A stretch of 64,000 bases of DNA from Escherichia coli (lineage in GTDB: Bacteria; Pseudomonadota; Gammaproteobacteria; Enterobacterales; Enterobacteriaceae): assembly GCF_009931435.1 (NCBI RefSeq), contig NZ_CP043414.1; one strand, written 5' to 3'. How positions within the stretch are numbered: position 1 is the first letter of the stretch; each line of letters starts with the position of its first letter. The notes under the pieces are model-generated. The model did not search any database. It was not told where the DNA came from and saw only the letters and a program-made list of their open reading frames with translations. The position numbers and the translations under genes are program-made. Shown here piece by piece: positions 15,497-19,643 of this stretch.

Positions 15497-16452
15497 TGAG
15501 TAAATCACACCCACGCTGGCGCTTAGCAAAGAAGATCCTCACCTGGCTATTTTTTATCGCAGTGATTGTGTTGCTGGTGATCTACGCCAAAAAGGTAGAC
15601 TGGGAAGAGGTCTGGAAGGTCATCCGCGATTACAATCGCGTTGCGTTGCTCAGTGCGATTGGGCTGGTGGTCGTCAGCTATCTGATATATGGCTGCTATG
15701 ATCTGCTCGCCCGCTTCTACTGCGGTCATAAACTGGCAAAGCGCCAGGTGATGCTGGTGTCGTTTATCTGCTACGCCTTCAACCTGACGCTCAGTACCTG
15801 GGTCGGCGGCATTGGTATGCGCTATCGTTTGTACTCCCGGCTAGGGTTACCGGGCAGCACTATTACGCGGATTTTCTCGCTCAGTATTACCACCAACTGG
15901 CTGGGCTATATTTTGCTGGCCGGGATTATCTTTACCGCAGGCGTGGTGGAGCTGCCGGATCACTGGTATGTCGATCAAACTACGCTGCGTATTCTCGGCA
16001 TTGGCTTACTGCTGATTATCGCGGTTTATTTGTGGTTTTGCGCTTTCGCGAAGCACCGCCATATGACCATCAAAGGGCAAAAGCTGGTGCTGCCTTCATG
16101 GAAATTCGCCCTCGCCCAGATGCTGATTTCCAGCGTTAACTGGATGGTAATGGGAGCGATTATCTGGCTGTTGCTGGGTCAAAACGTGAACTATTTCTTT
16201 GTACTGGGCGTGTTGCTGGTTAGTAGTATTGCTGGCGTCATCGTGCATATTCCGGCGGGAATTGGTGTACTGGAAGCGGTGTTTATCGCGCTACTGGCTG
16301 GGGAGCATACCTCCAAAGGCACAATTATCGCCGCCCTGCTCGCTTACCGTGTGCTGTATTACTTTATCCCGCTGCTGCTGGCGCTGATCTGTTACCTGTT
16401 GCTGGAAAGCCAGGCGAAGAAGCTACGAGCGAAAAATGAAGCGGCGATGTGA
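15496..16452 (+). CDS. ybhN: Inner membrane protein YbhN
   Basis: 318-aa polytopic membrane ORF, overlapping the clsB stop; synteny. Confidence 0.85.
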   Translation: MSKSHPRWRLAKKILTWLFFIAVIVLLVIYAKKVDWEEVWKVIRDYNRVALLSAIGLVVVSYLIYGCYDLLARFYCGHKLAKRQVMLVSFICYAFNLTLSTWVGGIGMRYRLYSRLGLPGSTITRIFSLSITTNWLGYILLAGIIFTAGVVELPDHWYVDQTTLRILGIGLLLIIAVYLWFCAFAKHRHMTIKGQKLVLPSWKFALAQMLISSVNWMVMGAIIWLLLGQNVNYFFVLGVLLVSSIAGVIVHIPAGIGVLEAVFIALLAGEHTSKGTIIAALLAYRVLYYFIPLLLALICYLLLESQAKKLRAKNEAAM

Positions 16453-16527
16453 AGAGCCTCTCATTTAATCATTTTTGTTCAACTTGCTCTTGTGAATCAG
16501 ATTGTTGACAAAGTGCGCGTTGTTTAT

Positions 16528-16626
16528 GCCGGATGCGGCGTAAACGCCTTATCCGACCTACAAAAGCCTGCAAATTCAATATATTGCATGGACCATGTAG
16601 GCCTGATAAGCATAGCGCATCAGGCA
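16528..16626. repeat. Pair of REP (palindromic unit) elements in inverted orientation (BIME-like)
   Basis: gccggatgcggcgtaaacgccttatccgacctac and gtaggcctgataagcatagcgcatcaggca, at the junction between backbone and AT-rich island 2. Confidence 0.7.
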
Positions 16627-16641
16627 ATTTTACCTTTGTCA

Positions 16642-17220
16642 TCAGTCTCGAATGGATTCACTTTTGCCTTGATGAGGAACTTTTTCCATTTCACTATAAA
16701 ATTTGATTTGGGCATCATTTAAAGGAAAAAAGCCATCGCGAAGCTCGTAGCATCTTAAGCCCCAGAAGGCATCATCTTTCATAGCCTCGCTATCACATTG
16801 GGTAAATATAGCATCCATTGCATCGGATAAAATTTCATCATCTGTTAACAATTGTTTTTTCATCAATTCTGATTGTTTAAAAACCGCATGCATAAAAATA
16901 TTATTGAATATAACAAAATCATTTATCCCAGAATTGCAATACATCATCGTAAAATTTGCGCATTCGTCTATATCATACAAGTAATAAACTTTCTTATTTT
17001 TTACGCTAACAATAAAATAACCATCTAAATCATGACCAAATACAATGTACTCATCGGAGTCGAATACATATAATTCATCACAATAAAACGTCACCTCTTG
17101 ATTTTCATAGGGAATAAGAAGCGGCAATTTTATTTTTATTCCCTTAATTAAATTGGATGAAGATGAGTTTATTTTTTTAAAAACCTTATCAGGCTGTAAA
17201 TTAATTAGTTTTGTTAACAC
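16642..17220 (-). CDS. Hypothetical 192-aa protein, island 2 (last gene of cassette)
   Basis: ORF in AT-rich DNA, co-directional with three upstream small ORFs; acidic, Asp/Tyr/Phe-rich; no motif I recognise. Confidence 0.55.
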   Translation of the reverse strand: MLTKLINLQPDKVFKKINSSSSNLIKGIKIKLPLLIPYENQEVTFYCDELYVFDSDEYIVFGHDLDGYFIVSVKNKKVYYLYDIDECANFTMMYCNSGINDFVIFNNIFMHAVFKQSELMKKQLLTDDEILSDAMDAIFTQCDSEAMKDDAFWGLRCYELRDGFFPLNDAQIKFYSEMEKVPHQGKSESIRD

Positions 17221-17282
17221 AAGTCATCCTTTTATCGTAATTGGCAACTCACAACATTTCATTAAACTACTTCACCATAATA

Positions 17283-17747
17283 TCATTTTATTTTCAACCC
17301 AGGAGAAAATAAATAATTTAGATACATTTCATTCGAATTGGACAAACCCGGATAAATATCGCAACCAGGCTTACTCAATAAAAAATCCTTATCCAAAATC
17401 TTAAAGTCATGACGAATTAATACATTAATTAAGTCTGCAATCTCTGCACCTATATTCATCGAGCTTGTTATAACGTCATCCTTGAATATTATAAAAGCAT
17501 ATTGCCCAACAAGAGATATATAGATAAAGGCAATGCCTTTTTGCAAAACAACTTCTAATGAAAGACAGACATCATAATTTAACTCAGTGTTATCTCTAAT
17601 ATCAAATCGTGAACTAAACGCAGAAATTATTTCTTTATATTTGGATGAATTGTATCCTTCCATCACAAATGCAAAATTGGGGTTCGCCATATCAAGATAA
17701 GATGTCTTAATTGCCTGATTACACTCATTTTTAATGTCCATAACCAT
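17283..17747 (-). CDS. Hypothetical 154-aa protein, island 2
   Basis: ORF in AT-rich DNA; 62-bp gap to the downstream ORF. Confidence 0.55.
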   Translation of the reverse strand: MVMDIKNECNQAIKTSYLDMANPNFAFVMEGYNSSKYKEIISAFSSRFDIRDNTELNYDVCLSLEVVLQKGIAFIYISLVGQYAFIIFKDDVITSSMNIGAEIADLINVLIRHDFKILDKDFLLSKPGCDIYPGLSNSNEMYLNYLFSPGLKIK

Positions 17748-17845
17748 CTACAACATTCATCCTTATAATAAGACTTTCAAGTCTATAAAAACCATATATC
17801 CTTGCACAAGCTTATTAGCTATTCATATTTGCATATCTCATAAAC

Positions 17846-18205
17846 CTATTTATCCGTAAATTTAAAAGAGACTTTATTTTCCCTTTCATCACTTAAGGGA
17901 TAATCATCTCTTTTTGTATAGATAAAATCGTTTGTTTGGAGAATTAGTTCTTGTATGACAGTCTCGAGCCTTTCAGGGAGGAGCGATTCGATATCCTCAA
18001 GCTCACAACCATGATAAATTATATCTATTAATTCTTTATCACAACCTTTCCTCCGTAGAGTACGGGCAAAAAAAGGACAGAAAACAAGCAATTCAGATTC
18101 ATCTATGGTTACTGCTCCCCTTTCCAGCGAGTGTAAAGCCCCTAAAAGCAGAATAGCCATAAATTTATCTACATATTTATTTTCTATTGTGCAAACTAAT
18201 GACAT
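17846..18205 (-). CDS. Hypothetical 119-aa acidic protein, island 2
   Basis: ORF in AT-rich DNA; 50-bp gap after the upstream membrane-protein ORF. Confidence 0.5.
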   Translation of the reverse strand: MSLVCTIENKYVDKFMAILLLGALHSLERGAVTIDESELLVFCPFFARTLRRKGCDKELIDIIYHGCELEDIESLLPERLETVIQELILQTNDFIYTKRDDYPLSDERENKVSFKFTDK

Positions 18206-18256
18206 AAAAACCTCCCTTGCTTAATATTATAAATATTTTTAAATATATGTGGCATT

Positions 18257-18604
18257 TCATTTCCTTTTTGCATCAATTTTCTTTAGAAATAACACCGCCA
18301 TATACGATAGCATGAATGATAAAATCATTAAAATAACTCTCAATGGATGCGAACCGCCCCACGAAAACAATAAATATAATGTTGCAATATAAGATAGTGT
18401 GTGCGTGTACTTATTTGCTATAAATGGCGTCAGGAATACCACGGGAAGGAGAACAAAAAGCATATAAAAGCGGATAAATCCCAAACCAACTCCGTGACTT
18501 GACGGCCTGAAATATGACGTATATATCTCGCGACCGAGGTCATGTGCCATCACCATAATCATAACACCTGTAATCGCAATAATTATCTTTATTACATTCA
18601 TCAT
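18257..18604 (-). CDS. Hypothetical 115-aa small polytopic membrane protein, first gene of island 2 cassette
   Basis: Three to four hydrophobic helical stretches with a basic C-terminal tail (KKIDAKRK). Confidence 0.55.
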   Translation of the reverse strand: MMNVIKIIIAITGVMIMVMAHDLGREIYTSYFRPSSHGVGLGFIRFYMLFVLLPVVFLTPFIANKYTHTLSYIATLYLLFSWGGSHPLRVILMILSFMLSYMAVLFLKKIDAKRK

Positions 18605-18890
18605 TTGATTTCTTCAATATGCGTCCATTACCTGCACCGTGAATGCCTGGGCCAGACAAGCACAAGAGCGTTCATGGCAGGAAACCGAAACAAGCGAATA
18701 AAATCGCAATAGTGTTTTACCCCGCCAGCTACCAGCCACCCAATGAGGGGCCGGTTTTTTCCGGGCAAGTAAGTGACAGCGTATTGACGGTTCAAATGAG
18801 TTATCTATCCCTGAATTGACGCATACGGATAGTGTGACATTTGCAGCGACTGAGTTCTCATGTAAATGAGCGGAATAGTCTTTATAAAAT

Positions 18891-18920
18891 CCGAAAAAAA
18901 TCCCGACACATGGCCGGGAT
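18891..18920 (-). terminator. Rho-independent terminator downstream of ybhL
   Basis: Minus-strand hairpin atcccg-(9 nt)-cgggat followed by a U-run (plus-strand ccgaaaaaaa precedes the stem). Confidence 0.6.
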
Positions 18921-18938
18921 ATTGATGGTGAAAAAGAA

Positions 18939-19643
18939 TTAACGGCGGTTGCCGAAGATCCTCAACAACATCAGGAACAGGTTGATGAAGTCCAGATATA
19001 AGGTTAACGCGCCAAGAATGGAATATTTGCGCAGGTTTGACGTGTCGCGGGTATCAATCTGCTCACCCATATTTTTCAATTTCTGAGTGTCATATGCCGT
19101 CAATCCGACAAAGACAATCACGCCGATATAGGTAACTGCCCACATCAATGCTTCGCTTTTCAGCCAGAAGTTGACCAGCGATGCCAGCACAATGCCGATT
19201 AACGCCATAAACAGCATATTGCCAAAGCCGCTTAGATCACGTTTTGTGGTGTAACCGTACAGGCTCATTGCGCCGAACATCCCGGCAGTAACGACGAAAG
19301 TACTGGCAATCGAGGCGGCGGTATAGACAATGAAAATACTGGAAAGCGTCAGACCCGTCAGCGCCGAATAAAGCATAAAGAGCATGGTCGTTACACTTGC
19401 ACTAAGCTTTTGAATCATCGCTGATAACACAATAACCAGTGCTAATTGCGCGATGATCAGACCGATTAAAAAAACACGGTTAGTGAACAATAGCTCCATC
19501 ACGGCCGCAGAATTAGCCGCATACCAGGCAACAAATGCGGTCAGCAACAAGCCAACGGTCATCCAGCCATAGACTTGCGCCATATAAGTTTGCAAGCCAG
19601 CCCGGGGTTGTACGATTGAATCAGAACGTGGGAATCTGTCCAT
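18939..19643 (-). CDS. ybhL: BAX inhibitor-1 family inner membrane protein YbhL
   Basis: 234-aa polytopic membrane ORF adjacent to the moa operon; synteny. Confidence 0.85.
   Translation of the reverse strand: MDRFPRSDSIVQPRAGLQTYMAQVYGWMTVGLLLTAFVAWYAANSAAVMELLFTNRVFLIGLIIAQLALVIVLSAMIQKLSASVTTMLFMLYSALTGLTLSSIFIVYTAASIASTFVVTAGMFGAMSLYGYTTKRDLSGFGNMLFMALIGIVLASLVNFWLKSEALMWAVTYIGVIVFVGLTAYDTQKLKNMGEQIDTRDTSNLRKYSILGALTLYLDFINLFLMLLRIFGNRR

What the first reader, a model, noticed from the sequence alone, without database searches (positions are those of the whole stretch)
18257..18604. Small polytopic membrane protein leads the island-2 cassette
The 115-aa product has three to four hydrophobic helices and a basic C-terminal tail (..KKIDAKRK). 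It is the first gene after a roughly 280-bp upstream region carrying a separate promoter, since ybhL has its own terminator. Small membrane proteins leading operons of unknown soluble proteins are a recurring arrangement in abortive-infection and toxin-type modules, so this is flagged separately from the cassette as a whole.
Basis: inference. Interest (0 to 1): 0.4.

Follow-up and report, generated by a model that had tools for sequence, protein, structure and literature searches.

The report
Orphan membrane immunity gene, T6SS-type
The 115-codon ORF is a real gene that RefSeq leaves unannotated; it encodes a four-helix inner-membrane protein from an uncurated family that elsewhere always follows a type VI secretion toxin gene, so here it is most likely a stand-alone immunity gene against rival bacteria, not a toxin or phage-defence component.

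Summary
The ORF exists at 18257-18604 on the minus strand. It encodes 115 aa with four hydrophobic helices (AF2 pLDDT 91.7) and a basic tail. ORF length alone is weak evidence, since 4.4% of shuffles reach it. Homology settles the question. A full HMMER scan finds 23 representative relatives of 86-158 aa (most 115-135), with conserved motifs in the two predicted periplasmic loops. None has a Pfam, NCBIfam or PDB match.

In all 10 distinct loci examined that carry the partner toxin gene, the small gene overlaps that gene's 3' end by 4-29 bp. The partner is a ~231-387-aa "E-family" protein with no Pfam or PDB match. These loci come from Serratia, Salmonella, Citrobacter, Buttiauxella, an E. coli-labelled assembly, Vibrio, Aeromonas, Pseudomonas and two assemblies of unknown taxon.

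The E gene follows VgrG or PAAR in seven of these loci. Relatives also occur fused to an N-terminal LysM domain or to an Rhs core. Extra copies of the small gene sit in immunity-gene arrays.

The window has no E gene. The ORF sits in a 2.1-kb islet with DUF3969 and SUKH-4 immunity-type genes that replaces ybhM. The islet occurs in 18 of 5,426 complete E. coli genomes, and only 3 carry the full cassette.

Verdict: an orphan T6SS immunity gene. It is a new family of a known kind, and expression and protection are untested.

The parts
18257..18604 (-). ORF115. Encodes a 115-aa four-TM inner-membrane protein of an uncurated family, read here as an orphan T6SS immunity protein. Predicted topology is N-in/C-in. 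The conserved motifs H21-D22..Y28, P34-x-S-H37-GVGLGF and W82..H86-P-L-R89 face the periplasm.
   Evidence: Intact in all 6 E. coli sequences inspected, i.e. the window plus 5 genomes. Not annotated in any of the 18 RefSeq complete genomes that carry it.
18605..18776 (-). Islet-specific 5' leader of unknown origin, about 50% G+C. It has no consensus promoter, no Rfam hit, and no detectable remnant of an E-family toxin gene.
18777..18893 (-). Remnant of the intergenic region plus the first ~6 codons of a 'middle' BI-1 paralogue that lies between ybhL and ybhM in about 740 genomes. This is the right junction of the islet. It is a possible, untested source of read-in transcription.
   Evidence: 85.7% identity to L002 2501-2625; the BI-1 CDS start is at L002 2519.
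18900..18920 (-). Intrinsic terminator-like hairpin of ybhL.
18226..18255 (-). Sigma-70-like site (ATGCCA-18-TATAAT, 10 of 12 matches) between ORF115 and the DUF3969 gene. It suggests the downstream gene can be transcribed on its own.
   Evidence: This is a consensus match only.
17846..18205 (-). DUF3969 family gene (119 aa) with a strong Shine-Dalgarno sequence. Homologues sit directly after a DUF637 (CdiA-type) toxin gene and near an RHS gene, i.e. in an immunity position.
17283..17747 (-). 154-aa hypothetical protein with no family match.
16642..17220 (-). SUKH-4 family immunity protein. PGAP's start gives 161 aa (16642-17127).
   Evidence: PF14435, 27.6 bits against a cut-off of 25.5.

Best explanation
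ORF115 is a genuine gene for a four-helix inner-membrane protein of a previously uncurated family.

Shown:
- Across Gammaproteobacteria, members of this family are the invariable downstream partner of a ~231-387-aa soluble protein family ('E-family'). The two reading frames overlap, which suggests translational coupling.
- The E-family behaves as a polymorphic T6SS toxin domain. It sits directly after VgrG or PAAR, often inside T6SS core clusters, and some relatives are fused to N-terminal LysM or to an Rhs core.

Inferred:
- The small protein is therefore the cognate immunity protein.
- It sits in the inner membrane with both termini in the cytoplasm. It presents two conserved periplasmic loops (P-x-S-H-GVGLGF and W..HPLR, together with the H-D at the outer end of helix 1) that neutralise the incoming toxin at the periplasmic face of the membrane.

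The copy in this window has no toxin gene next to it. It lies at the ybhL-proximal end of a 2.1-kb islet of immunity-type genes (DUF3969, a 154-aa unknown, SUKH-4) that replaced ybhM between ybhL and ybhN. It is therefore an orphan immunity gene. If expressed, it would protect this E. coli against T6SS attack by other Enterobacteriaceae that carry the toxin. Expression and protection are untested.
For: **The family is real**
- phmmer against 1.84 billion representatives gives 23 proteins at E<=1e-3, of 86-158 aa (most 115-135), with 9 at E<=1e-10.
- The alignment shows conserved loop motifs.
- The AF2 model has pLDDT 91.7.
- The positive-inside rule holds across 21 members: 7.3 K+R on the cytoplasmic side against 2.1 on the periplasmic side.

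**Partner gene**
- First seen in Vibrio aerogenes pLMG19650 as PAAR, then a 264-aa protein, then a 122-aa homologue with a 4-bp overlap. The pairwise E-value to ORF115 is 1e-20.
- The same pair follows VgrG in Serratia sp. DD3, in an E. coli-labelled assembly and in Logan contigs. It follows PAAR in Salmonella Miami, Aeromonas and Pseudomonas. It occurs as a stand-alone pair in Buttiauxella and Citrobacter.
- A LysM-fused E-family protein is followed by a divergent 124-aa member carrying the PPSRGIAVGI and LHPVR motifs.
- All 10 distinct E loci have the small gene overlapping by 4-29 bp.

**E-family as a toxin**
- The E proteins at the ten loci are 41-65% identical to each other.
- LysM is N-terminal in relatives. 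N-terminal LysM is a documented VgrG-loading module of T6SS toxins (PMC10673891).
- Three of 36 members carry Rhs_assc_core.

**Immunity-like behaviour**
- The small protein diverges faster than E: 18-45% identity (ignoring three local alignments of fewer than 20 residues) against 41-65%.
- There are tandem or extra copies in arrays with Imm52-like and TsiV immunity genes inside T6SS clusters.
- Toxin-less copies exist in Erwinia and Superficieibacter.

**Orphan status here**
- tblastn with ten-odd E-family and neighbouring proteins finds no E-family gene in the 64-kb window.
- blastn finds no match to the E-I pair in any of 5,426 complete E. coli genomes.

**Islet neighbours are immunity-type:**
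Against: - No experiment, and no expression evidence for this copy.
- The Shine-Dalgarno sequence is weak and no consensus promoter was found upstream.
- Substitutions between the two E. coli alleles are 4 synonymous to 6-7 non-synonymous, which cannot be told apart from neutrality. The ORF is no better conserved than its non-coding leader: 11 differences in 348 bp against 5 in 192 bp.
- One frameshifted variant exists (P0002).
- ORF115 is only 28-40% identical to toxin-linked members. Immunity is usually specific, so the toxin it would neutralise, if any, is not identified.
- The blastn search for E in E. coli would miss genes below about 65% nucleotide identity.
Confidence: 0.75

Rival explanations
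1. Decaying relic. The family is an immunity family, but this E. coli copy is a silent or functionless leftover of a horizontally acquired fragment and is drifting towards loss.
For: - No consensus promoter and a weak Shine-Dalgarno sequence.
- A neutral-looking substitution pattern, and no more conservation than in the leader.
- In the one short-islet genome where it was inspected (L003), the neighbouring DUF3969 gene carries an internal stop. An IS2 abuts the islet in another genome.
- A frameshifted allele exists.
- The islet is rare: 18 of 5,426 genomes.
Against: - The ORF is intact in all 6 sequences inspected across two allele groups that differ by about 4%.
- The intact 114-aa form is recorded on more than 110 contigs.
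- The start-codon change in the second allele (ATG to ATT) is buffered by the adjacent ATG, so the frame is preserved.
- There are too few substitutions for dN/dS to support either reading.
Confidence: 0.17
2. One reading: a small membrane toxin, holin-like protein or abortive-infection effector that leads an operon of soluble partners.
For: It is a small polytopic membrane protein at the ybhL-proximal end of a co-oriented cluster of unknown genes.
Against: - No PADLOC match for any of the four proteins.
- Relatives are never linked to DUF3969, the 154-aa gene or SUKH-4.
- Relatives occupy the position after a VgrG/PAAR/Rhs-linked toxin, with no third gene that could be an antitoxin. For example, in L008 the order is PAAR-E-I-TssE.
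- Tandem multi-copy arrays and toxin-less single copies would be hard to tolerate if the protein were itself toxic.
- The downstream genes are immunity-type.
Confidence: 0.04
3. The family is not an immunity protein. It is an accessory factor of the E-family protein, for example a membrane-bound chaperone or loading factor or a co-effector, and the E. coli copy has some unrelated membrane role.
For: - The toxin partner is soluble and its activity is unknown.
- Conserved His, Asp and Arg residues in the periplasmic loops could form a catalytic or ligand-binding site rather than a binding surface.
Against: - Two-gene modules after PAAR or VgrG leave no other candidate for immunity.
- Known T6SS adaptors (DUF4123, DUF1795, DUF2169) are soluble proteins (established knowledge).
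- Fast divergence relative to E.
- Duplication into arrays next to Imm52-like and TsiV genes, and orphan copies, are all hallmarks of immunity genes.
Confidence: 0.04

Closest known systems
Sip4, the immunity protein of the pore-forming T6SS effector Ssp4 of Serratia marcescens (EMBO J 2025, PMC12669606)
   Same: An integral inner-membrane T6SS immunity protein with four predicted TM helices and N-in/C-in topology. It is encoded by a small gene directly downstream of the effector. Its effector family is also spread over Enterobacterales, Pseudomonas and marine Gammaproteobacteria.
   Different: - Sip4 is longer: residue 145 still lies in a TM helix, its N-terminal ~43 residues are cytoplasmic, and it has only a low-confidence model.
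- Ssp4 is largely alpha-helical with predicted TM helices and is about 310-330 aa in Enterobacterales. The E-family protein is a mixed alpha/beta protein of 231-282 aa with no hydrophobic segment.
- The published list of Ssp4 homologues contains none of five E-family UniProt accessions. It has no Salmonella, Aeromonas, Photobacterium, Yersinia or K. michiganensis entry, although the E-family is common there.
- Direct sequence comparison with Sip4 and Ssp4 could not be run.
Orphan immunity genes and poly-immunity arrays of polymorphic toxin systems: SUKH and Imm families; T6SS orphan immunity in Vibrio cholerae and Bacteroidales (own knowledge; PMC12247911 seen by title and abstract only)
   Same: Toxin-less immunity genes from several unrelated families are clustered at a strain-variable chromosomal spot. 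Here the islet holds ORF115, DUF3969, a 154-aa unknown and SUKH-4.
   Different: The ORF115 family is in none of the curated Imm/SUKH/Tsi models of Pfam or NCBIfam. The islet is not attached to any T6SS, Rhs or CDI locus within the window.
BI-1/YccA family membrane proteins (ybhL, ybhM), the native occupants of this locus
   Same: Small-to-medium polytopic inner-membrane proteins with a basic C-terminus. The ORF sits exactly where ybhM and a third paralogue lie in other strains.
   Different: No sequence similarity: BLASTP E=2.1-31, and no Bax1-I Pfam hit. ORF115 has four helices rather than seven.

Membership tests
T6SS effector-immunity pair (immunity protein) | Encoded immediately downstream of, and co-oriented with, a toxin gene | tested here: met
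   Met for the family: 10 of 10 distinct E-family loci have the small gene overlapping the E stop by 4-29 bp. Not met for ORF115 itself, which has no toxin gene next to it. It is therefore filed as an orphan copy.
T6SS effector-immunity pair (immunity protein) | The partner is a T6SS substrate, i.e. linked to VgrG, PAAR, Hcp or Rhs, or to a T6SS core cluster | tested here: met
   E follows VgrG in L005, L007 and L018. E follows PAAR in L004, L008, L023 and L025. These loci sit among TssE/F/G/J/A genes. LysM-E and Rhs-core-E fusions also occur. Secretion itself was not tested.
T6SS effector-immunity pair (immunity protein) | Binds its toxin and neutralises it | not testable with these tools
   Needs toxicity-rescue and pull-down experiments.
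T6SS effector-immunity pair (immunity protein) | Located in the compartment where the toxin acts | tested here: inconclusive
   Inner-membrane location with periplasm-facing conserved loops is predicted. The toxin's site of action is unknown.
Orphan immunity gene / poly-immunity array | Toxin-less copies clustered with other immunity families, with strain-variable presence | tested here: met
   The window islet holds DUF3969 and SUKH-4. Family copies lie beside Imm52-like and TsiV genes in Yersinia and Logan loci. The islet occurs in 18 of 5,426 genomes, in two forms.
Curated immunity families (Pfam Imm*, SUKH-1..6, Tsi*, Tai/Tli; NCBIfam) | Significant match to the family HMM | tested here: not met
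   No Pfam or NCBIfam family reaches its threshold for ORF115. No Pfam family is shared by more than one of the 21 members.
BI-1/YccA (Bax1-I, PF01027) | HMM match and seven TM helices | tested here: not met
Known anti-phage defence or abortive-infection proteins (PADLOC) | Match to a defence-system HMM | tested here: not met
   No hit at E<=0.01 for ORF115 or for the three downstream proteins.
Ssp4/Sip4 family | Sequence homology of the effector to Ssp4 and of the immunity protein to Sip4 | tested here: inconclusive
   Only indirect tests were possible. E-family accessions and host genera are absent from the published Ssp4 homologue table, and the length, secondary structure and hydrophobicity differ.

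The most novel reading that the evidence does not exclude
The E-family and ORF115-family pair is an undescribed T6SS/Rhs toxin-immunity system. The toxin has a new fold and acts on a target at the periplasmic face of the inner membrane, for example a lipid-linked precursor or a membrane protein. The four-helix immunity protein does more than bind the toxin: its conserved periplasm-facing His/Asp/Arg cluster may shield or repair the membrane-embedded target. Enteric E. coli would then pick up stand-alone copies as cross-species armour.
Probability: 0.15. Interest if true: 0.7.

Novelty: new member of a known kind. Interest (0 to 1): 0.4.

Why it matters
1. Annotation. A conserved gene goes uncalled by RefSeq in all 18 complete E. 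coli genomes that carry it. Older GenBank records call it with a wrong start (75 aa), and gene callers also miss it in Pseudomonas loci. A family model would fix this.

2. Biology. It pairs two 'hypothetical' families into a widespread candidate T6SS toxin-immunity module (Salmonella, Klebsiella, Enterobacter, Citrobacter, Cronobacter, Yersinia, Vibrio, Aeromonas, Pseudomonas). The toxin has no recognisable fold, which makes a defined target for experiment.

3. Ecology. It identifies the ybhL-ybhN interval as a variable spot where E. coli stores orphan immunity genes. That is relevant to how commensal and pathogenic E. coli withstand T6SS attack in the gut.

The result is incremental for the T6SS field rather than surprising.

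Tried and rejected
- **Remnant of ybhM or of the third BI-1 paralogue.** Rejected: no BLASTP similarity. Only the upstream 117 bp (18777-18893) derive from that paralogue.
- **Spurious hydrophobic ORF in AT-rich DNA.** Rejected on homology and on a confident model. The length test alone is weak.
- **dN/dS within E. coli.** Uninformative: 10-11 substitutions in total.
- **Rfam scan of 16300-19100.** Nothing in the leader or the ORF.
- **tblastn against phages.** No match.
- **PADLOC.** No match.
- **The search for related loci with the 21-sequence alignment.** Failed because the alignment has no conserved stretch. It worked with a 7-sequence alignment.
- **Literature.** Six papers were opened; the Bacteroidales orphan-immunity preprint was seen by title and abstract only. 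None describes this pair: Klebsiella T6SS profiling, a Salmonella SPI survey, TseVF-TsiVF, Ssp4-Sip4 (preprint and EMBO J versions) and LysM/DUF2345. 'DUF3969' occurs in no paper of the library.
- **E-I identity correlation.** Weak: Spearman 0.31, and the pairs are not independent.

Full report
**1. What is at the coordinates**

The ORF lies at 18257..18604 on the minus strand and encodes 115 aa, MMNVIK...KKIDAKRK. It sits in a co-oriented run. In order of transcription this is moaABCDE, ybhL (18939..19643), a 334-bp gap, ORF115, a DUF3969 gene (17846..18205), a 154-aa unknown (17283..17747) and a SUKH-4 gene (16642..17220). ybhN and clsB follow on the other strand.

Hydropathy gives three strong hydrophobic segments and one weaker one. 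An AlphaFold2 model built on 21 homologues gives a four-helix bundle with pLDDT 91.7 and pTM 0.84.

ybhL has a terminator-like hairpin at 18920-18900. No sigma-70-like site was found in the 334-bp gap. One lies between ORF115 and the DUF3969 gene. The Shine-Dalgarno sequence of ORF115 is weak, whereas the DUF3969 gene has AAGGGAGG.

An ORF of this length arises in 4.4% of dinucleotide shuffles of the region. Length alone therefore proves little.

**2. Distribution in E. coli**

The full 2.5-kb interval is present in only 3 of 5,426 complete E. coli genomes. ORF115 with its leader and the DUF3969 gene is present in 18.

The other 15 genomes match this stretch at about 96% identity. The four of them inspected carry a shorter islet: ORF115 and DUF3969 (with an internal stop in one case), then a 73-aa ORF in three and an IS2 in the fourth. 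They lack the 154-aa and SUKH-4 genes.

The islet replaces ybhM. It also replaces a third BI-1 paralogue that sits between ybhL and ybhM in about 740 genomes. Window 18777-18893 is the remnant of that paralogue's upstream region and first codons.

RefSeq annotates nothing at ORF115 in any of the 18 genomes. GenBank records call it either as 114 aa or, from an internal TTG, as a 75-aa 'membrane protein'.

The ORF is intact in all six sequences inspected. In the second allele the first ATG is ATT and the adjacent ATG serves as the start. The alleles differ by 4 synonymous and 6-7 non-synonymous changes, which is too few to judge selection. One frameshifted variant is on record.

**3. Is it a gene? 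Relatives**

The word-indexed search of 5.8 billion proteins found only the E. coli clusters. tblastn against plasmids then hit an unannotated 122-aa ORF on Vibrio aerogenes pLMG19650, with 31% identity over 114 residues and a pairwise E-value of 1e-20.

An exhaustive HMMER scan of 1.84 billion representatives found 23 relatives of 86-158 aa, most of them 115-135 aa. They share these motifs:
- H(D/Q)LG..Y at the end of helix 1
- P-x-S-H/R-GVGLGF in loop 1
- a proline in helix 2
- W..HPLRV at loop 3

K+R counts place the N-terminus, loop 2 and the C-terminus in the cytoplasm. The two conserved loops are then in the periplasm.

The family has no Pfam, NCBIfam, PADLOC or PDB counterpart. I tested the idea that the ORF is a remnant of the BI-1 paralogues and rejected it.

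**4. Genomic context of the relatives**

| Locus / organism | Arrangement |
|---|---|
| Vibrio aerogenes plasmid | PAAR, 264-aa protein, small gene (ATGA overlap) |
| Serratia sp. DD3; an E. coli-labelled assembly; two Logan contigs | TssG-TssJ-VgrG, 264-269-aa protein, small gene (20-23-bp overlap), TssE |
| Salmonella Miami | PAAR, 231 aa, small gene, TssE |
| Aeromonas cavernicola | PAAR, 273 aa, small gene |
| Pseudomonas | TssE, PAAR, 282 aa, an uncalled 126-aa family member, TssF |
| Buttiauxella, Citrobacter | The pair stands alone |
| A metagenomic locus | LysM-fused partner followed by a divergent 124-aa member with recognisable motifs |

The partner proteins at these loci ('E-family') are 41-65% identical to each other. 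The 111 database relatives found at E<=1e-5 carry no Pfam domain other than LysM, and every one that has a name is called 'hypothetical', 'uncharacterised' or 'LysM repeat protein'.

Some E-family members carry an N-terminal LysM domain, which is a documented VgrG-loading module (PMC10673891). Three of 36 carry an Rhs-associated core. These are the architectures of a polymorphic toxin domain.

The E model is confident (pLDDT 90.6) and is a mixed alpha/beta fold without hydrophobic helices. It matches no solved structure.

Extra copies of the small gene occur in tandem. They also occur next to Imm52-like and TsiV immunity genes and a DUF6402/DUF6201 pair, inside T6SS clusters. Toxin-less copies occur in Erwinia and Superficieibacter.

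The small protein diverges faster than E: 18-45% identity (ignoring three local alignments of fewer than 20 residues) against 41-65%.

**5. Interpretation**

The family behaves as the cognate immunity protein of an uncharacterised T6SS/Rhs toxin. This is inference from gene order, overlap, duplication, orphan copies and evolutionary rate. It is not shown by experiment.

The window copy has no toxin gene beside it, and none is detectable in the 64-kb window. blastn finds no E-I pair in any complete E. coli genome, although that search would miss diverged genes.

Its neighbours are immunity-type genes. One is SUKH-4. The other is DUF3969, whose homologue directly follows a DUF637/CdiA-type toxin gene in P. 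aeruginosa and lies near an RHS gene on an E. coli plasmid.

The best reading is therefore an orphan immunity gene in a small poly-immunity islet at a hypervariable spot. The gene is not co-conserved with the three downstream ORFs, so it does not 'lead' a functional module.

Whether it is expressed is open. The retained upstream region of the displaced BI-1 gene may drive it, or it may be silent.

**6. Comparison with known systems**

The closest functional analogue found is Sip4, the four-TM inner-membrane immunity protein for the pore-forming effector Ssp4 (PMC12669606). Indirect tests argue that the two pairs are different families:
- The published Ssp4 homologue table holds none of five E-family accessions. 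It also has none of the genera Salmonella, Aeromonas, Photobacterium and Yersinia, nor K. michiganensis, where the E-family is common.
- Ssp4 is helical with TM segments, whereas E is not.
- Sip4 is longer than the ORF115 family.

Direct sequence comparison was not possible. Other membrane-located T6SS immunity proteins (Tsi4, Tsi5, TsiV2, Tmi) are analogues known to me from the literature only, and I did not test them here.

**7. Verdict**

The 'toxin or abortive-infection leader' interpretation is replaced by 'orphan T6SS immunity gene of an uncurated family'.

Novelty: a new family within a known kind of system. Interest is moderate (0.4). The practical value is an annotation fix and a defined, testable toxin-immunity pair with an unknown toxin fold.

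Noticed in passing
window 16497-16649: A ~150-bp repeated element between the ybhN stop and the SUKH-4 stop. It is present 2-29 times per E. coli genome at 85-96% identity. It has sub-threshold Rfam hits to ES036 (CssrF), naRNA4 and Ysr224, so it is probably a REP/BIME-type repeat marking the left edge of the islet.
   Followed up: partly
window 18777-18893; L002 1815-2625: The ybhL-ybhN interval is a hypervariable spot. Most genomes have ybhM only. About 740 have an extra BI-1 paralogue between ybhL and ybhM, giving three BI-1 genes in tandem. Eighteen have the immunity islet instead, and it retains the upstream region and first ~6 codons of that extra paralogue.
   Followed up: partly
L026 (P. 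aeruginosa NZ_CP116719.1) 1-6600; L027 (E. coli pL65-4): A DUF3969 homologue starts 14 bp after a DUF637 (CdiA-type) toxin gene. An array of deaminase and EndoU toxin/immunity modules follows it. Another DUF3969 gene lies near an RHS gene. DUF3969 therefore looks like an uncharacterised CDI/Rhs immunity family. The name occurs in no paper of the library.
   Followed up: partly
L018 6001-6795 and relatives (alignment A4): The ~231-387-aa partner ('E-family') is a widespread toxin-like domain with no recognisable fold. It is unannotated apart from the LysM domain carried by some relatives. It has invariant W/D/K/Q/R positions (GDWK, PYW-DA-GQIP, Y-DN-F-LRGA). It occurs stand-alone after VgrG or PAAR, with N-terminal LysM, and on Rhs cores.
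   Followed up: partly
L023/L024 4846-5226: In Pseudomonas T6SS clusters the small immunity-like gene after PAAR and the E gene is also missed by the gene callers. It overlaps the E stop by 4 bp and matches the family HMM at 3.9e-7.
   Followed up: yes
window 16642-17220: The start of the SUKH-4 gene is ambiguous. The mechanical ORF is 192 aa, but PGAP annotates 161 aa (16642-17127) in the near-identical genome.
   Followed up: no
window 23964-26261 (minus): A 765-aa AT-rich ORF next to yvcK with a stretch that looks like pentapeptide repeats (..NFSNVNFNDANMKRATLMDCKLSGASF..). It is probably another horizontally acquired gene.
   Followed up: no
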